Of a stretch of DNA of 64,000 nucleotides, positions 13,258-59,679 are shown piece by piece. The stretch is from contig JAGCXM010000042.1 in the NCBI GenBank assembly GCA_017961325.1, forward strand, positions 11,623 through 75,622, in the 5' to 3' direction. Positions within the stretch are counted from its first letter, which is position 1. Every line of letters starts with the position of its first letter. The notes below the pieces were generated by a model. It did not search any database. It had not been told where the DNA came from and saw only the letters and a list, made by a program, of their open reading frames with translations. Position numbers and translations under genes: made by a program. The DNA comes from a bacterium. Its GTDB lineage: Bacteria > UBP6 > UBA1177.

Positions 13258-14428
13258 GCGGATAGACAAAGTAAACTCGCTTAAGAGATTTTTTTTGTTT
13301 TTGCTGATTGTTTCAGCCGTTTTCGGTGCTTCGGAATTTGTTCTGCAGGAATTTACGCCGTTCGGAGACGCCTTGAACAATTTGGAATACTATGCCGGTC
13401 TCTCTTTTTCCGAAAAAGATGCGAAAACAGCGATGAAAGCCAGGGAGGATCTGGCTTCTCTCGGAGCAAAAATCATAAAAGTTCCGGGGACGCTGATTTA
13501 CCGCTATAAAAAGGCTGAAACGGAGAGCTTCAGCTTCAATTCATTCGGATTCCGCGGCGAGGAACCTTCGAAAAAGGGGGAAAACGAATACAGGATAGGG
13601 GTTTTCGGCTGTTCGAAGGTTCTCGGAATTTATCTTGCAGAGGAAAATACGATCCCGTTTATTCTTCAACAGAGGGCGCAGCGGGAGTTCCCGCAGAAAA
13701 AAATAACCGTCTTCAACATGGGAGTCGAAGGATACGACCTGCAGCGGGCGATTTCGTTTGCCGAATTTGACGGCGAAAGGCTGGGACTCGATATGGCGGT
13801 GTTTTATTCAAACGTAAACGACATAAATTACAGTTTCAAGGACGGAAGCATAGATTGGGAACCGTTTAAGGAAAACGAAGAGGTTTATCAGAATCTGGTC
13901 GAAGATATTGCCGCGCACAGTAAAAAGCCGTTTTGGGAACGAAGCCGTCTCAGGGCAGTGGTAAAAGAGGCTTTTTTAAGTGATTTCGTTAAATATTTCG
14001 CCTCTTTTGCAAAAGATCAGGTTTTCCAGAAACTCACTCCGGAATTTGAAAGAAGGGCTGTGGAGTTTTCTGAAAAATTTAATGAAAGGATAAGAAAAAC
14101 TTCTGAGAAATTTGAAAAAAAGGGAATAAAAACGGTTTTTTTCTTCCCGCCGATAATTCAGCTGAAGGAGCCTTTGAGCAAAATAGAACGGAATATGCTT
14201 TACAAAAATGAAATGAGTATCGCCGGCTACAACAACTATTTTATCAAGTGCGCGGAAGGGGTTTCGGAAAGTGAAAATCCCCTTATTTTTTCTCAAAAGG
14301 ATATTTTCAGAGGATATCGCGAAACTGCCTTTTTCGACGGAATTCATTTTACGCCTGAAGCTTCCCGGATTGTCGGGAACGACGTCGCTGAAAAGGTCGT
14401 TTCCGTATTGAAAAAAGAACTTGATTGA
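13244..14428 (+). CDS. Membrane-anchored SGNH/GDSL-like partner of MBOAT, paralog B
   Basis: Collinear with paralog A (KRIDKVNSLKRF, FNSFGFRGEE, GVFGCSKVLG with D-to-C change next to Ser); overlaps A by 14 nt. Confidence 0.6.
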   Translation: MKKNKRIDKVNSLKRFFLFLLIVSAVFGASEFVLQEFTPFGDALNNLEYYAGLSFSEKDAKTAMKAREDLASLGAKIIKVPGTLIYRYKKAETESFSFNSFGFRGEEPSKKGENEYRIGVFGCSKVLGIYLAEENTIPFILQQRAQREFPQKKITVFNMGVEGYDLQRAISFAEFDGERLGLDMAVFYSNVNDINYSFKDGSIDWEPFKENEEVYQNLVEDIAAHSKKPFWERSRLRAVVKEAFLSDFVKYFASFAKDQVFQKLTPEFERRAVEFSEKFNERIRKTSEKFEKKGIKTVFFFPPIIQLKEPLSKIERNMLYKNEMSIAGYNNYFIKCAEGVSESENPLIFSQKDIFRGYRETAFFDGIHFTPEASRIVGNDVAEKVVSVLKKELD

Positions 14429-54063: not shown

Positions 54064-54639
54064 TTATTTCCAGAGGAAAACTTCGGTCGCAAGAACGAGG
54101 TTGAAGTAAAAATTCGACCTTTCGACGAAGTATTTGCCGAGTGCCGGAGCAAGATAGATGTTCACCGATTCGTGCGGCGAAACGTACGTGCCGAGCCTAA
54201 GTTCCAGAGCCACGCGGGTGTCGGAAGTATCGATCGGATCGGCTGTCACGATGGTTAAAAATTCACCTCTGAAGCCCGAAATTTTTATTCCTGCCGATAC
54301 CGTGGCGGCTGCTTCTCCGCCCAGATACATCTTGTTGAAATGGCGGTTCGTGAGAAAAAATCCGTCTATTTTCAGAAGTCCGGCTACATGTTCGCTGTCA
54401 AGCCACTGCCAGCCTATGCCGAATTTCATGCCGGGATTTTGAAAACGGTTGACCATAAGCCCGAAATTCAGGTTGAGGTATTGAATCAGCGGCGCGTTGT
54501 ATAGAAAATTCGATTCCTCAAGCGATACGGTTGCCGATAACGACGGGATTTTGTCGCCGGAAATCCTGTCGCTGAGAACTGCGTGGAGATTCGCGAAAAG
54601 AAGGAAAATAAATATGAAAACGGAAAACTTTTTATTCAT
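54064..54639 (-). CDS. Small outer-membrane beta-barrel-like protein (191 aa)
   Basis: Signal peptide; alternating hydrophobic pattern; upstream of and co-oriented with ECF sigma. Confidence 0.4.
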   Translation of the reverse strand: MNKKFSVFIFIFLLFANLHAVLSDRISGDKIPSLSATVSLEESNFLYNAPLIQYLNLNFGLMVNRFQNPGMKFGIGWQWLDSEHVAGLLKIDGFFLTNRHFNKMYLGGEAAATVSAGIKISGFRGEFLTIVTADPIDTSDTRVALELRLGTYVSPHESVNIYLAPALGKYFVERSNFYFNLVLATEVFLWK

Positions 54640-55439
54640 TTGGTTTCTTCATTTCCTTCAGAACGTTTTCAATCACGCGGTCGAATTCACCTGCACTTTC
54701 CATAGTAGTGAAGCAGTCGAGTATCAGAAATCCGTCTTCTTTTTTCATAGTCGAAATCAGCCCCAGATTTTCGTAACTTTCTATGGTAAAATGAAAGAAA
54801 AAATTTTCTTTCGGCTTCATTTTTATGATTCTGTGCCACGCCATTTCAATTCTCCATAAAACCGCTGAATTAACGCGGTAAAAGCGTTTCGTGTCAAGTT
54901 TTTTTGTGTGTGAACGGTGCCAGGCCGGCATTGAATATGCAGATATGCCCAACCGGCGGCAAAAAAACGTGGGCCAAAGCCACCGCTTGATTTCAACGGC
55001 ACTCCACGAACCGTCTGGCATTTCGATTACTGCATCGATTTCTTTGCCGGAATAATCCTGATAGTGATAGAGGTTTCCTCCGAATGATCCGGCGTAGATC
55101 CTTAAATCTCTTTCGCACATGGCTTCGGATAGAAAGTCCAATATATTCAAGTTGTTAAGCAGAATTTCAGGCGTGCTCTAATAAGTGAAAAGCAAGCAAA
55201 GGATCGGCAAAATGGCGTTTCTCCTGCTGCTTCACCCTGACGGAAGAGCGAATATTCGATGAAAACAGCATGATATTGTCAAACAGAAAAAGCCTTTCAA
55301 AAACTTCAAGGTATGACGATATTGTGTTTATGTCCACAGTTGAATCGTCTTTTTCCGCGATATCCTTCTGCAGAGTTCTGATAGAAACAACGGCACTTTC
55401 ATTCCGAGCCAGACATACCATGTTCATACAAATTCGCAA
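54632..55439 (-). pseudogene. Decayed C-terminal remnant of an AAA-ATPase/DUF4143 gene (paralog of 57608..58882)
   Basis: Two adjacent ORF fragments align with the C-terminal half of the intact paralog (ARNESAVVSIRTLQKDI~ARNLGSQITVKAICEDL; MCERDLRIYAGSFGG~MCVRDLRVFADALDG); AAA domain missing, frame disrupted. Confidence 0.6.
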
Positions 55440-55993: not shown

Positions 55994-56177
55994 CTCCACA
56001 ATGTGAGAGCCAGTTCCCAGACCCCCTCAGGCTGCTGCGCAGCCAGAACGGCAGTCTGGAGGTATGGAGCTGCCGCAAAGCGGCTGAGGAGTAATAAGTG
56101 TCACCGAATAGTTTGATTTTATTAAATCTTTGTGCATGATTGCGCTGTTTTGATGTGGTTCGGAAAGGAGTCGGATA

Positions 56178-57458
56178 GTGGCAAAGCCGTATTTTTCATT
56201 TTATCTGGTTTTCTTTTTTCTGTTCATTCCGCTGTTCCAGTGCTTCTGCGCTTTTGCTGAAGAAAATCAGGATGTTAAGAATGGAGCGCTCGTGTCGGCG
56301 GTAAAGATCGAAGGTCTGGGAAGGACAAAGGAATCCTATATGCTCTCGGTGCTCGGGAAGTATGTCGGGACCCCTGAAAGCCGTATCGATCTGCATGAAG
56401 TCAAGGTCACTCTTGAGGAGTTGGAACTTTTTTCCGAGACTGAGGTCTCGCTTAAGAAAGATGAAAACGGCGCTGCTGTGCTTTTCATAAAAGTTAAGGA
56501 AAAATGGTCGTTCATTCCGGTCCCTTTTTTCATGTATTCAAGCTCGACAGGCTTTATGGGCGGGGCTTTCGTGATGGATACGAACGCCTTCGGGATCAGG
56601 GACAACTATGTCGTTGGCGGAGTTTTTTCTAAAAATATCCAGCTCGCGCTTATGGCCTACAGCAGACCGACGCGTGACATCAGACACCCCGGTTTTACGG
56701 TGGGAGCATCTTTTAACCACCGCGACAACGAGGAGAAGAATCTTTCAGGTGAAAAAATATTCGAATACAACGCAATGGGCGGTTCGGTTTATGCCGCAGT
56801 GAGCGATAAGATTACGGCACATTCGAAGATAAACGCCGGTCTGCGCTACAGCTACACCAATGCCGGCGTTAAGAAAAAATACACGGAATACAAAGAAAAA
56901 GTCAAGTCTTTTCACGCAATTACGCCGGGAGTTGGCTGGGACGTCAGTTTTTCATCGCTTAACGAATGGTTTCTGTCGGTGAAATCGTTCAGCATAGACG
57001 GCGCTGTGACGGTCCTGGCTTCTGGAAGCTGCGCGGAATCCCTCGGTTTTAAGTTTACGATACAGTATCCGCTGCCTGTTACGCGCCTTCGGGTGCTTAC
57101 ACAATATGCGCTTTACCTGTCAAACAACCTTCCGGTCCCGCTGAGACCAACACAGATGGTCGTAGGAACGACGATAATGCCGGACAAATTCCACGGCACC
57201 AAGATGGGAGGCGCCGATTTTGGTCTTGAAGTCGGCATTCTGAACACGAAATTCGTTATGTTTTCGGCTTACGGGCTTTTGGAGCAGTTTGCCGGAGAGG
57301 ATTCCGACGGAAGTTTCGTAATGAATTTCGGATATTCGACCGGATTGAAAATGTATCTGAAAAAACTGGCGATACCGGCGATCGCGGTCGGCGTTTCGCA
57401 CAATCTGATGCAGAACGAAATCAAGTTTTCCGCAACGATAGGAATGGGAGGATTTTAG
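56178..57458 (+). CDS. Omp85-superfamily outer membrane protein with single POTRA domain
   Basis: GTG start; signal peptide; POTRA-like N-domain; C-terminal barrel ending in aromatic residue (GGF). Confidence 0.5.
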   Translation: MAKPYFSFYLVFFFLFIPLFQCFCAFAEENQDVKNGALVSAVKIEGLGRTKESYMLSVLGKYVGTPESRIDLHEVKVTLEELELFSETEVSLKKDENGAAVLFIKVKEKWSFIPVPFFMYSSSTGFMGGAFVMDTNAFGIRDNYVVGGVFSKNIQLALMAYSRPTRDIRHPGFTVGASFNHRDNEEKNLSGEKIFEYNAMGGSVYAAVSDKITAHSKINAGLRYSYTNAGVKKKYTEYKEKVKSFHAITPGVGWDVSFSSLNEWFLSVKSFSIDGAVTVLASGSCAESLGFKFTIQYPLPVTRLRVLTQYALYLSNNLPVPLRPTQMVVGTTIMPDKFHGTKMGGADFGLEVGILNTKFVMFSAYGLLEQFAGEDSDGSFVMNFGYSTGLKMYLKKLAIPAIAVGVSHNLMQNEIKFSATIGMGGF

Positions 57459-57485
57459 TCCTTATTTCAGAAAATTCTGATCCGG

Positions 57486-57554
57486 AAATCCGCCAATTTG
57501 CCAAACGAAAATACGCCAAATTGCCAAACAAAAATCCGCCAATTTGCCAAATTG
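57486..57554 (+). repeat. Three tandem ~22-bp direct repeats (core CGCCAAwTTGCCAAA)
   Basis: AAATCCGCCAATTTGCCAAAC / GAAAATACGCCAAATTGCCAAAC / AAAAATCCGCCAATTTGCCAAATTG directly upstream of AAA-DUF4143 gene. Confidence 0.7.
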
Positions 57555-57607
57555 CTTGATTTCAGTGAATTTTTCAGTATGCTCTTTTTGTGTTTTTGGA
57601 GGGTAGA

Positions 57608-58882
57608 ATGAAAAAGTATAAACACAGAGTGGTTGATTCGCTTTTGGTGAAAAAGTTAAAAGGCAAAGGTGCTGTTCTGGTTGAAGGTGCAAAATGGTGC
57701 GGAAAAACTACGACGGCGGAGCAGGTTGCAGGCAGCATTCTTTACATGTCGGATCCGGCGAAATTTAAGCAGAATCTTCAGGTTGCCGAAATAAATCCTG
57801 GAATATTGCTTCAAGGTGATGTTCCGCGGCTTATAGATGAATGGCAGGTTGCTCCGCAGTTGTGGGATGCGGTGCGTTTTGAAGTCGATCATCGAGACGG
57901 TTTCGGGCAGTTCATTCTTACAGGCTCTGCTGTTCCGGTAAGCAGCGATGAAATTTATCACAGCGGAACAGGACGTTTTTCGTGGCTTTTGATGAGACCG
58001 ATGAGCCTTTTTGAATCAGGTGAATCAAACGGAAGCGTAAGTATAAAACAACTTTTTGAAACTCCAGAGCAGATATCGGGAGTCAACAAGCTGGATTTGA
58101 AGGATATAGCTTTCCTGATATGCCGCGGCGGCTGGCCTAAAGCGTGTGAAATGGATAATGAAACAGCTCTTTCTCAGGCGTTCGATTATTTTGATGCGGT
58201 CGTGCGTTCCGATATTTCAAGGGCTGACGGTATTTCAAAAAATCCTGACAGAGTAAGGCGTCTGATGCGTTCTCTCGCAAGAAACCTCGGTTCTCAGATC
58301 ACGGTCAAAGCTATCTGTGAGGATCTCCAGACAAACGAGGCTTCCGATTTTTCAGATACCACGGTCAATTCCTACATAAACGCTTTGAAAAAAATATTTG
58401 TTGTCGAGGATATGCCTGCGTGGAATCCTAATTTAAGATCGAAAACGGCGATCCGCAGCTCGGAAACGCGTTATTTTGTAGACCCTTCGATCGCTGTTGC
58501 AGCTCTCGGTCTTGGTCCGGATGATTTGATTAACGATCTTAATACCTTAGGACTGCTTTTTGAAACTATGTGCGTGAGAGATCTCAGGGTTTTTGCCGAT
58601 GCGCTTGACGGAGAAGTCCGCCATTACAGGGATAAAAACGGGCTTGAATGTGACGCTGTCGTGCATTTACGCAACGGTTCCTTCGGATTGGTTGAAATAA
58701 AACTCGGCGGCGAAACAGCGATAGAACACGGTGCCGCGACGCTGAAAAAGCTCTCTTCGCTGATAAATACCGAAAAAATGAAAGCACCCTCTTTTATGAT
58801 GATTCTTACGGCTGTCGGTGATTATGCTTATCGCAGGAACGACGGCGTATATATCGTTCCGATCGGTTGTCTTGGAGAATAA
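57608..58882 (+). CDS. AAA+ ATPase with C-terminal DUF4143 domain (COG1373 family)
   Basis: Walker A GAKWCGKTT, Walker B region ILVLENL/IDEWQ; C-terminal DUF4143-like region; start at MKKYKH after GGAGGG RBS. Confidence 0.8.
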   Translation: MKKYKHRVVDSLLVKKLKGKGAVLVEGAKWCGKTTTAEQVAGSILYMSDPAKFKQNLQVAEINPGILLQGDVPRLIDEWQVAPQLWDAVRFEVDHRDGFGQFILTGSAVPVSSDEIYHSGTGRFSWLLMRPMSLFESGESNGSVSIKQLFETPEQISGVNKLDLKDIAFLICRGGWPKACEMDNETALSQAFDYFDAVVRSDISRADGISKNPDRVRRLMRSLARNLGSQITVKAICEDLQTNEASDFSDTTVNSYINALKKIFVVEDMPAWNPNLRSKTAIRSSETRYFVDPSIAVAALGLGPDDLINDLNTLGLLFETMCVRDLRVFADALDGEVRHYRDKNGLECDAVVHLRNGSFGLVEIKLGGETAIEHGAATLKKLSSLINTEKMKAPSFMMILTAVGDYAYRRNDGVYIVPIGCLGE

Positions 58883-58925
58883 ATCCGCCAATTTGCCAAG
58901 CAAAAATCCGCCAAATTGCCAAATT
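58881..58925 (+). repeat. Two further copies of the 22-bp CGCCAAwTTGCCAA repeat, same orientation
   Basis: AAATCCGCCAATTTGCCAAGC / AAAAATCCGCCAAATTGCCAAATT beginning at the stop codon of the AAA-DUF4143 gene. Confidence 0.7.
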
Positions 58926-58938
58926 ATAAAAAGCTCTT

Positions 58939-58990
58939 GACAAAAGTATCATTGTGATGATATAAAAAATCGTGTCATTGTGGTGATACA
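58939..58990 (+). promoter_or_regulatory. Putative sigma70-like promoter with paired direct-repeat operator upstream of DUF3990/DUF3791 operon
   Basis: TTGACA -18 nt- TATAAA; the -10 sits between two copies of TCATTGTG(A/G)TGATA spaced 21 bp apart. Confidence 0.35.
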
Positions 58991-59007
58991 AAATAGGAGG
59001 CTTAAGT

Positions 59008-59679
59008 ATGATTCTATATCACGGATCAACGAAAATCATTGAGAAACCGACTCTTGTGGCAGGGAAAAAACACAATGACTACGGACAGGGATTCTACTGC
59101 ACAAAGGAGATCGAAGTCGCCAAAGAGTGGGCGTGCAGGGAAAACAGCAACGGTTTTGTCAACAAATACAGGCTGAAAAAAAGCGGGCTCAAAGTGCTCG
59201 ACATGCAGGATAAACGCTGCTCGGTCCTGAATTGGATCGCCGTTCTGCTGCAAAACAGGACTTTTTCGCTGGAAAACGAGATCGCAGCTGCGGCAAAAGA
59301 GTATATCGTGAACAACTTTGCAGTTGATACGGCTCCTTTTGATGTTGTTACTGGCTACCGCGCTGACGATTCCTATTTTTCTTTTGCCAGGGATTTCATC
59401 AACAATACTCTGCCGCTTGCAAGTCTGGAAAAGGCTATGCACCTGGGAAAACTCGGCATTCAGTACGTTCTTGTTTCGGAAAAAGCATTTACTCAGCTGA
59501 TTTTTACCGGAGCCGAAGCGGTCAGTTGTGAAACATATTTCCCGAAATATACGGCGCGTGACTCTGATGCAAGAGCGGCTTATAAAGAAGAGATCCGTCG
59601 TGCCGTGATATCTAAAAGTATTTTTGTGATGGATATTATCCGGGAGGGAATGAAAAATGGCGATCCGCGCATACAGTGA
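59008..59679 (+). CDS. DUF3990 protein with diphtheria-toxin-like H-Y-E ADP-ribosyltransferase N-terminal motif
   Basis: LYHGS ... GQGFYCT closely resembles diphtheria toxin SYHGT ... KGFYST (His21, Tyr65 context); GGAGG RBS. Confidence 0.65.
   Translation: MILYHGSTKIIEKPTLVAGKKHNDYGQGFYCTKEIEVAKEWACRENSNGFVNKYRLKKSGLKVLDMQDKRCSVLNWIAVLLQNRTFSLENEIAAAAKEYIVNNFAVDTAPFDVVTGYRADDSYFSFARDFINNTLPLASLEKAMHLGKLGIQYVLVSEKAFTQLIFTGAEAVSCETYFPKYTARDSDARAAYKEEIRRAVISKSIFVMDIIREGMKNGDPRIQ

What the first reader, a model, noticed from the sequence alone, without database searches (positions are those of the whole stretch)
57486..58925. AAA-DUF4143 ATPase gene bracketed by five same-orientation copies of a 22-bp GCCAA-N3-GCCAA repeat, with a decayed paralog 2.2 kb upstream
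Three tandem repeat units (core CGCCAAwTTGCCAAA) lie immediately 5' of the gene and two lie immediately 3'. The units are contiguous with no spacers, so this is not CRISPR. Each unit has two GCCAA half-sites as a direct repeat, typical of a protein-binding array. A truncated, frame-broken copy of the same ATPase family (54632..55439, minus strand) lacks the AAA half entirely, so the family is turning over locally. COG1373-type ATPases are widespread and expanded but functionally uncharacterised. A repeat-bounded copy next to a degraded one suggests either a small mobile or selfish module or an autoregulated defense ATPase.
Basis: seen in the sequence. Interest (0 to 1): 0.55.

Follow-up and report, generated by a model that had tools for sequence, protein, structure and literature searches.

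The report
Repeat operator arrays flanking defence ATPase
The five 23-bp repeats are real and are one local version of a tandem-repeat array found just upstream of the promoter of almost every gene in this very common, uncharacterised ATPase-nuclease family; the array is most likely the protein's own DNA-binding site, which gives a first experimental handle on the family.

Summary
Five same-strand units of period 23 bp (not 22) flank a 424-aa AAA_14/DUF4143 gene (PADLOC candidate PDC-S01): three at 57486-57554 and two at 58881-58926.

The 5' array is a family feature. Of 123 distinct upstream regions of homologues, 120 carry at least two phased units, and 96 of the 101 statistically clear arrays have a period of exactly 23 bp. 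Arrays end at the core promoter, about 45-80 bp before the ATG. The unit sequence changes with the protein lineage (GCCAA-N3-GCCAA here, GCCAATCGTCGGAA in gut Firmicutes, unrelated units at 29-42% identity). A second subfamily uses 33-34-bp units. No other gene is conserved nearby. The modelled protein (pLDDT 92) is an Orc1/Cdc6-like AAA+ domain, a winged helix and an intact PD-(D/E)XK nuclease.

My best reading is that the array is the protein's own iteron-like operator and mediates autoregulation. Binding itself is inferred, not shown.

The 3' pair is exceptional (3 of about 105 loci). Sister strains show that 57470-58933 is an indel at a defence hotspot. The alternative alleles are an empty site, a GmrSD/HNH gene and an extra cassette, and every breakpoint lies at an array. 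In this lineage the arrays therefore also mark cassette junctions. No transposon or integron features were found.

The parts
57486..57554 (+). 5' array: three tandem 23-bp units (AAATCC-GCCAAWTTGCCAA-Annn). The last unit abuts the -35.
   Evidence: homologous arrays upstream of orthologues
57556..57583 (+). Putative sigma-70-type promoter of the ATPase gene, TTGATT-16-TATGCT. Read by eye and not flagged by the consensus scan. The same layout is kept in L063, L089 and L090.
57608..58882 (+). ATPase-nuclease gene, 424 aa. It has an AAA+ domain (Walker A G27-x4-G32-K33-T34, Walker B D77-E78), a winged helix (about 213-290) and a PD-(D/E)XK domain (E319, D349, E363-x-K365). PADLOC assigns it to PDC-S01.
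58881..58926 (+). 3' array: two tandem 23-bp units starting inside the stop codon. The same 45-bp module occurs at other cassette junctions in sister strains.
57470..58933 (.). Segment present in the window but absent from the empty-site allele L180 (indel of 1464 bp = 5' array + promoter + gene + 3' array).
   Evidence: junction sequences
58937..58988 (+). Neighbouring DUF3990-HTH operon promoter (TTGACA-18-TATAAA) with two TATCA-N6-TGATA operators (58947-58962, 58973-58988). It is conserved in alleles that have no array, so it is not part of the array system.
54632..55439 (-). Decayed paralogue: two frame-broken DUF4143 fragments aligning to residues 220-365 only. There is no AAA half and no array.

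Best explanation
The 23-bp units are the cognate, iteron-like operator of the protein encoded next to them.

The protein has an Orc1/Cdc6-like AAA+ ATPase domain, a winged-helix DNA-binding domain and an intact PD-(D/E)XK nuclease domain. It belongs to family AAA_14/DUF4143 and to the PADLOC defence candidate PDC-S01.

Proposed mechanism (all inferred):
- One protomer binds each unit.
- The invariant GCCAA half-site is read by one DNA-contacting element and the variable second half by another.
- The head-to-tail, fixed 23-bp spacing templates a cooperative, probably ATP-dependent oligomer that ends at the -35 hexamer and sets the gene's own transcription.
- I lean towards autorepression of a potentially toxic nuclease, but activation of the MalT type is not excluded.

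Shown here: the array, its fixed period and position, its co-variation with protein lineage, and the protein's domain make-up. Inferred: that this protein is the binder, and the sign of regulation.

The 3' pair in the window is a second copy of the same operator module at the junction with the next transcription unit. In this ruminant-gut lineage the 45-bp two-unit module is dispersed among cassettes of a defence hotspot. Cassette gain, loss and replacement all have breakpoints at it, most simply through homologous recombination between copies. The ATPase with both arrays therefore behaves as an indel without being an autonomous mobile element.
For: 1. Association. A pattern scan of one genome per species found 83 stretches. 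79 have a period of about 23 bp. In 43 of 76 arrays a homologue of the ATPase (42-99% identity) starts 21-116 bp downstream on the same strand.

2. Unbiased test. 80 loci were fetched by protein similarity only and combined with the others.
- 101 of 123 distinct upstream regions exceed every shuffle in a self-similarity score, and 96 of those 101 have a period of exactly 23 bp.
- Arrays have 2-7 copies and mostly end 46-78 bp before the ATG.
- 120 of 123 have at least 2 phased units.
- 41 of 51 arrays found without any motif contain GCCAA, against a background of 1.16 per kb per strand.
- A tandem score of 15 or more occurs upstream of 67% of homologues and 5% of control ORFs.

3. The unit sequence tracks the protein.
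- Variants include GCCAATCGTCGGAA, GCCAATCTTCCGATT, GCCAAATAACCGAAT and others.
- Cultured examples, all with period 23: Gardnerella swidsinskii has 5 units; Bacteroides ovatus (64% identity) has AAGCCAAACTGCCGAATAATATT x3; Collinsella aerofaciens (42%) has TCCCAA-type units x4; Prosthecochloris (30%) and Lentilactobacillus (29%) have unrelated units.
- Adjacent paralogues keep distinct arrays: GCCAAATTGCCAA versus GCCAAATTATAAA in Acholeplasmataceae, and two different arrays in L149.
- A subfamily at about 23% identity has 2-3 units of 33-34 bp. In L170 and L171 these overlap the -35/-10.

4. The array persists while the promoter type changes: Bacteroidetes-type TAnnTTTG versus sigma-70-like TATAAT.

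5. No other gene is conserved nearby. The commonest flanking family is in 20 of 119 loci and is itself another AAA paralogue.

6. Protein. The AlphaFold2 model has pLDDT 91.9 and pTM 0.92. The best Foldseek hits are the archaeal AAA+/winged-helix ATPases 2fna and 2qen, Cdc6/Orc1 bound to origin DNA (2qby), ORC subunits, STAND ATPases including MalT, and Card1. Walker A/B, E319, D349, E363, K365 and wing residues P274, S278 and R283 are invariant in 84 sequences.

7. Hotspot alleles.
Against: - There is no direct binding or expression evidence. Everything is comparative.
- Attempts to localise specificity-determining residues were inconclusive. Mutual-information peaks at residues 233-254 coincide with generally variable columns. 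A homologue at 88% identity (L089) has a different second half-site with no concentration of substitutions.
- Arrays lie upstream of the -35 rather than over the core promoter. This position is as typical of activators as of repressors.
- The same array type precedes unrelated genes (GmrSD/HNH in L177, a Zn-ribbon protein in L064, an acetyltransferase in L063). It also occurs as cargo-less orphans next to housekeeping genes (L012/L048, L017, L025, L040), and I could not check whether those genomes encode the cognate ATPase.
- More distant family members (410-aa type) showed no array.
- The Acholeplasmataceae paralogue pairs come from closely related MAGs (84-98% identity), so they amount to few independent observations.
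Confidence: 0.6

Rival explanations
1. The arrays are recombination or mobility sites. The [array-ATPase-array] segment is a mobile cassette that integrates and excises at arrays. The ATPase-nuclease would itself nick or cut at its repeats to stimulate cassette exchange, in an integron-like system without an integrase.
For: - Every allele breakpoint at this hotspot lies within about 20 bp of an array: L180 empty site (57469/58934), L019 (58889), L064 extra cassette (58924/58886), L177 (about 57528/58917) and L175 (57550/58936).
- In L064 the two-unit module is duplicated around an inserted gene.
- The 45-bp module recurs after an MGMT gene in L019, L177 and L181, and in front of other cargo.
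- In L089 and L090, DNA homology to the window runs exactly from the array start to the stop codon, in different genomic contexts.
- The nuclease catalytic residues are intact.
Against: - Own-type 3' copies are absent in about 102 of 106 loci, so bracketing is not how the family is organised.
- Arrays always have one orientation and a fixed distance to the promoter and ATG, as expected of a regulatory element.
- There are no terminal inverted repeats and no target duplication.
- No recombinase or transposase appears in any allele's gene table.
- Repeats shared between otherwise unrelated cassettes are where ordinary homologous recombination must resolve, so breakpoints there need no dedicated enzyme.
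Confidence: 0.15
2. The arrays are bound by a host factor, or act as a generic promoter-upstream (UP-like, bent DNA) element. They have no specific relation to the ATPase protein.
For: - Units carry A-rich spacers and lie upstream of the -35, where UP elements and activator sites lie.
- The same arrays sit in front of non-ATPase genes and as orphans.
Against: - GCCAA and the exact 23-bp period are kept in records labelled as several phyla, and under two different promoter architectures. No transcription factor is known to be shared by all these hosts (general knowledge).
- Unit sequences differ between subfamilies and between adjacent paralogues in one genome. This is what a co-evolving, element-encoded binder predicts and what a common host factor does not.
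- No conserved neighbouring gene exists.
Confidence: 0.1
3. The array is primarily a functional DNA ligand for defence rather than a regulator. It would be a self-encoded loading or titration site for an ORC-like sensor-nuclease that is triggered by similar iterated motifs on invading replicons.
For: - The fold is Orc1/Cdc6-like with an intact nuclease domain.
- The gene sits in a defence hotspot next to a PDC-M42-like operon and a type I R-M system, and the same slot holds GmrSD/HNH in another strain.
- Specificity diversifies between lineages.
Against: - The type-A array is essentially absent from viral contigs: 1 match in 2.9 million, with a different spacing.
- The protein is rare on plasmids and phages.
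- The fixed position next to the gene's own promoter is explained more simply by autoregulation.
- Anti-phage activity of PDC-S01 has not been validated (PMC12988326).
Confidence: 0.1
4. The repeats are a neutral local tandem duplication (minisatellite) with no function.
For: Copy number varies from 2 to 4 among close strains, and spacers are homogenised within an array, as expected of slippage or unequal exchange.
Against: The core is identical in at least two units (13/13 bases) and the period is identical next to orthologues only 48-65% identical in protein, whose surrounding DNA is unalignable. The frequency is 67% versus 5% in controls.
Confidence: 0.02

Closest known systems
Archaeal Orc1/Cdc6 initiators and their origin recognition boxes (ORB / mini-ORB) next to the cdc6 gene
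   Same: Both have an AAA+ plus winged-helix protein (Foldseek hit 2qby, Cdc6/Orc1 on origin DNA, E about 2e-5). Both have several repeats of about 22-35 bp immediately upstream of the protein's own gene. The two-part unit (conserved half plus variable half) recalls the bipartite winged-helix plus AAA+ contact of Orc1 (general knowledge; inference here).
   Different: Here all units are direct, tightly tandem, and end at a promoter. No AT-rich unwinding element was seen. The loci are ordinary bacterial chromosomal sites at a variable hotspot, several per genome. The protein carries a PD-(D/E)XK nuclease domain that initiators lack. TM-scores to Orc1 are low (about 0.24) because the match covers domains, not the whole arrangement.
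MalT (STAND ATPase regulator) and direct-repeat MalT boxes
   Same: An NTPase of the STAND/ORC-like class multimerises on several asymmetric direct repeats placed just upstream of the -35 (general knowledge). MalT appears among the Foldseek hits (8bob, E 5e-4).
   Different: MalT uses a LuxR-type HTH and is an activator of other operons with weak -35 hexamers. Here the domain is a winged helix, the gene regulated is primarily its own, the -35 hexamers look competent, and a nuclease domain is present.
Plasmid iterons with Rep initiator autoregulation, and DnaA boxes in the dnaA promoter
   Same: Tandem direct repeats of about 20 bp are bound by the adjacent gene's product. The array serves for cooperative loading and autoregulation, and its sequence co-diverges with the protein between replicons (general knowledge).
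   Different: There is no Rep-family protein and no replicon context. Only 13 of 72,556 plasmids carry a homologue, and housekeeping genes lie around the window locus. Replication function cannot be assessed here.
ParR/parC of plasmid R1 and omega repressor heptad arrays (centromere-operator arrays)
   Same: Arrays of short direct repeats around or upstream of a promoter are bound cooperatively by many copies of a small element-encoded protein, giving autoregulation. Arrays of the same type sit in front of several promoters of one element (general knowledge).
   Different: Those binders are ribbon-helix-helix proteins with 7-11-bp repeats and a partition function. Here the binder would be a 424-aa AAA+ nuclease with 23-bp repeats.
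Integron gene cassettes (attC)
   Same: Cassettes of unrelated, often defence-type genes at one hotspot are separated by copies of a short repeated element, and indel breakpoints fall at that element.
   Different: attC sites are imperfect inverted repeats recombined as folded single strands by an IntI integrase, and cassettes are promoterless. Here the elements are direct repeats without hairpin potential, each is followed by its own promoter, and no integrase is present.

Membership tests
AAA_14/DUF4143 (COG1373) = PADLOC candidate PDC-S01 | Match to the family profile HMMs over the full length | tested here: met
   Pfam DUF4143 5.7e-34 and AAA_14 6e-12, both above the curated cut-offs. PADLOC PDLC04790 (PDC-S01) 2.6e-63 over residues 1-422.
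AAA_14/DUF4143 (COG1373) = PADLOC candidate PDC-S01 | P-loop ATPase motifs (Walker A, Walker B) intact | tested here: met
   G27, G32-K33-T34(T35) and D77-E78 are invariant in 84 aligned homologues.
AAA_14/DUF4143 (COG1373) = PADLOC candidate PDC-S01 | C-terminal PD-(D/E)XK nuclease core with catalytic E...D...E-x-K | tested here: met
   E319, D349, E363 and K365 are invariant. The model shows the alpha-beta-beta-beta-alpha-beta core at residues 311-401. DUF4143 is listed as PD-(D/E)XK in PMC3424549. Card1 nuclease hits in Foldseek.
AAA_14/DUF4143 (COG1373) = PADLOC candidate PDC-S01 | Anti-phage activity | not testable with these tools
   [quoted passage not shown] Only context supports it: a defence hotspot with PDC-M42-like, type I R-M and GmrSD/HNH alleles.
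Orc1/Cdc6-type initiator with origin repeats | AAA+ domain followed by a winged-helix DNA-binding domain | tested here: met
   Model pLDDT 91.9. Foldseek hits: 2fna 4e-7, 2qen 2e-6, 2qby_A 2e-5, and ORC subunits.
Orc1/Cdc6-type initiator with origin repeats | Repeats flank an AT-rich unwinding element and the site acts as a replication origin | tested here: not met
   Units are contiguous direct repeats ending at a promoter. No unwinding element lies between them. The locus is an indel at a variable hotspot. Origin activity itself is not testable here.
Iteron-type plasmid replicon | Rep initiator gene and plasmid location | tested here: not met
   No Rep-family Pfam hit. Housekeeping genes surround the locus. 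Homologues occur on 13 of 72,556 plasmids.
CRISPR array | Repeats separated by unique spacers of similar length | tested here: not met
   The 13-bp cores are separated by 10-bp spacers that are nearly identical within an array. The period is 23 bp and arrays have 2-7 units.
Integron cassette array | attC inverted-repeat sites and an IntI integrase | tested here: not met
   No inverted repeats at the units or module ends. No integrase in the gene tables of any allele.
Transposon / insertion sequence | Terminal inverted repeats, target-site duplication, transposase | tested here: not met
   Junction comparison with the empty site L180 shows no duplication. No terminal inverted repeats. The only ORF is the ATPase.
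REP/BIME-like dispersed repeats | Palindromic units dispersed genome-wide without a specific gene partner | tested here: not met
   Units are asymmetric direct repeats. There are none elsewhere in the 64-kb window. They are strongly tied to one gene family. Whole-genome dispersal in this organism could not be measured.
Known RNA families | Rfam covariance-model match | tested here: not met
   The only match in 57000-59300 is sub-threshold and lies inside the coding sequence (E 0.95).

The most novel reading that the evidence does not exclude
PDC-S01 proteins are sequence-programmed, ORC-like ATPase-nucleases whose cognate 23-bp arrays are more than operators. The protein would assemble on the arrays and cut or nick there. 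This would drive capture, loss and exchange of defence-gene cassettes at array-marked junctions (an integrase-free, integron-like shuffling system), and/or attack foreign replicons that carry similar iterated motifs.
Probability: 0.12. Interest if true: 0.85.

Novelty: new variant of a known kind. Interest (0 to 1): 0.62.

Why it matters
AAA_14/DUF4143 proteins (PADLOC PDC-S01) are reported as the fourth most common 'defence' call across prokaryotes (PMC12988326) and the most frequent single locus in rumen genomes (PMC13356809). Yet no ligand, structure or mechanism is known. There is no PDB relative by sequence, and only three papers in the searched library mention DUF4143 at all.

A conserved, lineage-specific 23-bp tandem array at the gene's own promoter supplies three things:
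- A concrete predicted DNA ligand for biochemistry and structure work.
- A simple regulatory model to test.
- A cis-signature that could improve annotation and sub-typing of thousands of paralogues. There are 8,843 clusters at 50% identity with E up to 1e-3.

It also shows how short operator modules shared between cassettes can become the seams along which a defence hotspot is rearranged.

Tried and rejected
1. Treating the 3' pair as the operator of the downstream DUF3990-HTH operon. I rejected this as the primary explanation. Five alleles with the same DUF3990 promoter and its own TATCA-N6-TGATA operators lack the array. It may still have a local effect in the window strain.

2. Residue-to-site covariation. 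Mutual information between alignment columns and second-half-site class peaked at residues 233-254, but those columns are simply the most variable. Close pairs with different arrays (88% and 80% identity) showed no clustering of substitutions. The 56 fixed differences between the Acholeplasmataceae paralogue groups are spread out. Result: inconclusive.

3. The first structure prediction, with 36 close homologues, failed (pLDDT 49). It was repeated with 84 more diverse sequences.

4. PDB sequence searches with a single sequence and with a profile found nothing.

5. Phage or plasmid origin of the array. There was 1 match in viral contigs, with a different spacing. The protein is rare on plasmids and phages.

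6. The period-33 tandem repeat at 14068-14133 in the window lies inside a coding region and is unrelated.

7. Nine pattern hits of period 8 and several period-24 GCCAA-rich repeats in Cryomorphaceae/Flavobacteriales are a different kind of repeat and were excluded.

8. Literature searches for the structural relatives returned only false matches such as DUF2345.

9. Taxonomy of the window. The source label is only 'bacterium'. Several MAG bins labelled as non-Bacteroidota carry Bacteroidetes-type promoters, so the taxonomic breadth inferred from bin labels may be inflated.
Full report
OBSERVATION

The repeats are in the sequence as described, with small corrections. Tandem Repeats Finder gives 57486-57551, period 23, 2.9 copies, score 111. 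Reading the sequence gives three units at 57486-57554 and two at 58881-58926, all on the + strand. Each unit is AAATCC-GCCAAWTTGCCAA-Annn.

GCCAANNNGCCAA occurs five times in 64 kb, only in these arrays (expected 0.11). The 15-mer with up to 2 mismatches gives the same five plus one weak hit (expected 0.47). The period is 23, not 22.

The 5' array ends 54 bp before the ATG (57608). Between them lie TTGATT-16-TATGCT and a GGAGGG ribosome-binding site. This promoter is my reading of the sequence; the simple consensus scan did not flag it. The 3' array begins inside the TAA stop codon, and no terminator-like site intervenes.

The gene encodes a 424-aa AAA_14 + DUF4143 protein that matches the PADLOC candidate PDC-S01 at 2.6e-63. 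The decayed paralogue at 54632-55439 (minus strand) is confirmed. It consists of two frame-broken DUF4143 fragments aligning to residues 220-365 only. No known RNA family and no inverted repeats are present.

THE 5' ARRAY IS A FAMILY FEATURE

Two adjacent units were used as a pattern to scan one genome per species, which found 83 stretches. Of these, 79 have a period of about 23 bp. In 43 of 76 arrays a homologue of the ATPase (42-99% identical) starts 21-116 bp downstream on the same strand. The records are labelled Bacteroidales, Acholeplasmataceae, Gastranaerophilales, various Bacillota and others. The 13-bp core is identical, while the 10-bp spacer differs between genomes and is homogenised within an array.

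That search selects for the motif, so I also fetched 80 loci by protein similarity alone (65-88% identity). Only 8 of 77 carry GCCAAWTTGCCAA-like units. However, reading the upstream DNA shows that nearly all carry their own tandem array in the same place.

Over all 123 distinct upstream regions:
- 101 exceed every shuffle in a motif-free self-similarity score.
- 96 of those 101 have a period of exactly 23 bp.
- Copy number is 2-7 (mode 3), and the array mostly ends 46-78 bp before the ATG.
- 120 of 123 have at least two phased units.
- Among arrays found without any motif in the unbiased set, 41 of 51 contain GCCAA, against a background of 1.16 per kb per strand.
- Upstream tandem scores of 15 or more occur for 67% of homologues and 5% of control ORFs of 250 aa or more in the same loci. 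Most of the control 'hits' are these same arrays seen from a neighbouring gene.

The consensus unit is nGCCAA-(w)(t)nn-C-nn-AA followed by an A-rich tail. The first half-site is general. The second half varies (CGGAA, CCGAA/T, GGAAA, CTGAA, ATAAA, GCCAA).

THE UNIT CO-VARIES WITH THE PROTEIN

Cultured-organism records give the same architecture with different units:
- Gardnerella swidsinskii: 5 x GCCAATCRTCGGAA.
- Bacteroides ovatus plasmid, 64% identity: 3 x AAGCCAAACTGCCGAATAATATT.
- Collinsella aerofaciens, 42%: 4 x TCCCAA-type units.
- Prosthecochloris aestuarii, 30%, and Lentilactobacillus hilgardii, 29%: unrelated units, still with period 23.

Adjacent paralogues keep different arrays. 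In five Acholeplasmataceae loci one paralogue always has GCCAAATTGCCAA units and the other GCCAAATTATAAA units. These MAGs are close relatives, so this is few independent observations.

A subfamily only about 23% identical has 2-3 units of 33-34 bp (L019, L023, L099-112, L164-168, L171). In L170 and L171 these overlap the -35/-10 and the leader. The most distant members sampled (410-aa type) show no array.

The array is kept while the promoter type changes between Bacteroidetes-like TAnnTTTG and sigma-70-like TATAAT. No flanking gene is conserved: the maximum is 20 of 119 loci, and that family is itself another AAA paralogue. The ATPase is thus the only constant partner of the array.

THE PROTEIN

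With a more diverse 84-sequence alignment, AlphaFold2 gave pLDDT 91.9 and pTM 0.92. A first attempt with a shallow alignment failed.

Foldseek against the PDB returns:
- the archaeal AAA+/winged-helix ATPases SSO1545 (2fna, 4e-7) and PAB2304 (2qen);
- Cdc6/Orc1 bound to origin DNA (2qby) and ORC subunits;
- STAND ATPases (CED-4, Apaf-1, Avs5, MalT);
- for the C-terminal domain, Card1.

Invariant residues are Walker A (G27...G32-K33-T), Walker B (D77-E78), the PD-(D/E)XK set (E319, D349, E363, K365), and a conserved basic wing (W272, P274, R277, S278, K279, R283). The protein is therefore an Orc1/Cdc6-like ATPase with a winged helix and an apparently active nuclease. Sequence searches of the PDB find nothing.

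The family is very large: 8,843 clusters at 50% identity with E up to 1e-3. It is reported as one of the commonest unvalidated defence candidates (PMC12988326, PMC13356809). I found no description of the upstream arrays in the searchable literature.

THE 3' PAIR AND THE 'MODULE'

Own-type units within 420 bp downstream of the gene occur in only 4 of 106 loci: the window, its close relative L064, L015, and one case that is simply the next paralogue's array. Bracketing is therefore an exception.

Sister strains found through the neighbouring DUF3990 protein (87-93% identity) give alternative alleles of the same slot, between a 426-aa outer-membrane-type gene and the DUF3990-HTH operon:
- L180 is an empty site. 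It aligns to window 56108-57469 and 58934-60300 with 4 nt between. Segment 57470-58933 is thus window-specific, and there is no target duplication.
- L177/L178 have a two-unit array plus the same TTGATT promoter start, driving a GmrSD_N/HNH gene instead.
- L175/L176 have a four-unit array plus promoter with no cargo.
- L064 has the ATPase followed by [two units - Zn-ribbon gene - two units].
- In L019 synteny breaks 8 nt into the 3' array. The next gene there is the distant paralogue with its own 34-bp array.

The DUF3990 promoter and its two TATCA-N6-TGATA operators are conserved in alleles without any array. The 3' pair is therefore not an intrinsic part of that operon's control.

The same 45-bp two-unit module also follows an MGMT gene in L019, L177 and L181, and drives an acetyltransferase in L063. 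All breakpoints fall at arrays. None of these loci shows an integrase, a transposase, terminal inverted repeats or target duplications.

The simplest account is that the operator-plus-promoter module has spread to several cassettes in this lineage. As the only homology shared between cassettes, it is where recombination resolves.

MECHANISM

Shown here:
- a conserved, phased, oriented array at a fixed position next to the promoter;
- unit sequence tracking the protein lineage;
- no other conserved partner gene;
- a protein with a DNA-binding winged helix of the initiator type.

Inferred:
- The protein binds its own array, one protomer per 23-bp unit.
- It assembles head-to-tail, probably with ATP.
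- It thereby controls its own promoter.

I lean towards repression. The last unit abuts or overlaps the -35, the -35 hexamers look competent, the 33-bp subfamily's units cover the core promoter, and the product is a nuclease. A MalT-like activating arrangement is not excluded.

A further speculation: 23 bp is about 2.2 helical turns, so successive sites are rotated by roughly 60-70 degrees. This would suit a spiral AAA+ assembly.

Attempts to pin specificity to particular residues were inconclusive.

RIVALS

- An array-based mobility or cassette-exchange system is compatible with the breakpoints. It is not needed to explain them, and the absence of 3' arrays in most loci argues against it.
- A host-factor or UP-element reading does not explain paralogue-specific units or persistence across promoter types.
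- A 'defence ligand' role is possible but unsupported. The array is essentially absent from viral contigs, and the gene is rare on plasmids and phages.
- Neutral duplication is excluded by conservation at 48-65% protein identity.

VERDICT

The finding that generalises is new as far as I can tell. It is a lineage-specific 23-bp (or 33-34-bp) tandem operator array attached to a very abundant, uncharacterised Orc1/Cdc6-like ATPase-nuclease family. It is a new variant of a known kind of system (iteron or operator arrays bound by the adjacent gene's product), and it makes the family's DNA recognition directly testable.

Noticed in passing
window 58947-58962 and 58973-58988: There are two copies of a TATCA-N6-TGATA palindrome (TATCATTGTGATGATA, TGTCATTGTGGTGATA). 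One lies between the -35 and -10 of the DUF3990-HTH (PDC-M42-like) operon promoter and one lies just downstream. They are conserved in all seven sister alleles and are the likely operator of the operon's own HTH protein (59657-60307).
   Followed up: partly
window 56178-60307, compared with L175-L181, L019 and L064: The slot between the 426-aa outer-membrane-type gene and the DUF3990 operon is a defence-gene hotspot. Its alternative alleles are: empty (L180), GmrSD_N/HNH type IV restriction-like gene (L177/178), a 167-aa minus-strand gene (L175/176), PDC-S01 ATPase (window), ATPase + Zn-ribbon/DUF1566-like gene (L064), and ATPase + a second distant ATPase (L019).
   Followed up: yes
window 60306-60441: A short stretch after the HTH gene resembles the 5' end of the hexapeptide acetyltransferase cassette that is intact in L063 and L175/L176 (82% over 79 bp to L063). 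The stretch at about 60376-60441 matches downstream junctions in L019, L175 and L181. This is a remnant of a lost cassette.
   Followed up: partly
L019 4335-5830 (minus strand): A distant AAA/DUF4143 paralogue (443 aa, about 23% identical) lies directly after the ATPase orthologue. It is preceded by three 33-34-bp tandem units (AGAAATTTCGGGGATAGAGTGTTTTTTGAGGCA). Relatives in viral-labelled contigs L170/L171 have TGCGAnTnTGnGG units at the same spacing, overlapping TTGACA...TATAAT.
   Followed up: partly
window 54632-55150 (minus strand): The decayed DUF4143 fragment ORF also gives a sub-threshold Pfam DUF4911 match in its C-terminal part (1.3e-06, below the cut-off). This suggests a fusion or read-through into unrelated sequence.
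   Followed up: no
L001 13574-21275 (corresponds to window about 61181 onward): The type I restriction-modification system downstream (HsdM, HsdS, HsdR) is interrupted by extra genes, including a DUF6680 protein and a 501-aa RES-domain protein.
   Followed up: no
L012 6842-6877 and L048 2588-2623; also L017, L025, L040, L046: Orphan two- or three-unit GCCAAATTGCCAA arrays lie next to housekeeping genes, with no ATPase homologue within the fetched DNA. Their positions are: after the same 364-aa gene in two Bacteroidales MAGs, before groES, after ribF, and before aspS. It is unknown whether they are scars of lost ATPase genes or trans-regulated sites.
   Followed up: partly
L009, L058, L069, L072, L083 (Cryomorphaceae/Flavobacteriales MAGs): A different GCCAA-rich repeat of period about 24 (for example GCCAATTTGCCAAGGTGCCAAGGTGCCAATTTGCCAA) occurs at several places in one MAG, next to CTAGC/TTAGC-type simple repeats. 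It is not linked to the ATPase family.
   Followed up: no
L023, L028, L056, L065, L067: These contigs are labelled Oscillibacter, Acutalibacteraceae, Senegalimassilia, Streptococcaceae and Treponemataceae bins. They nevertheless carry Bacteroidetes-type TAnnTTTG promoters and 63-67% orthologues like those of Bacteroidales, so they may be mis-binned contigs.
   Followed up: no
window 57463-57485: The 23 bp immediately before the first unit (TATTTCAGAAAATTCTGATCCGG...) align at 67% with a unit pair. They may be a decayed fourth unit.
   Followed up: no
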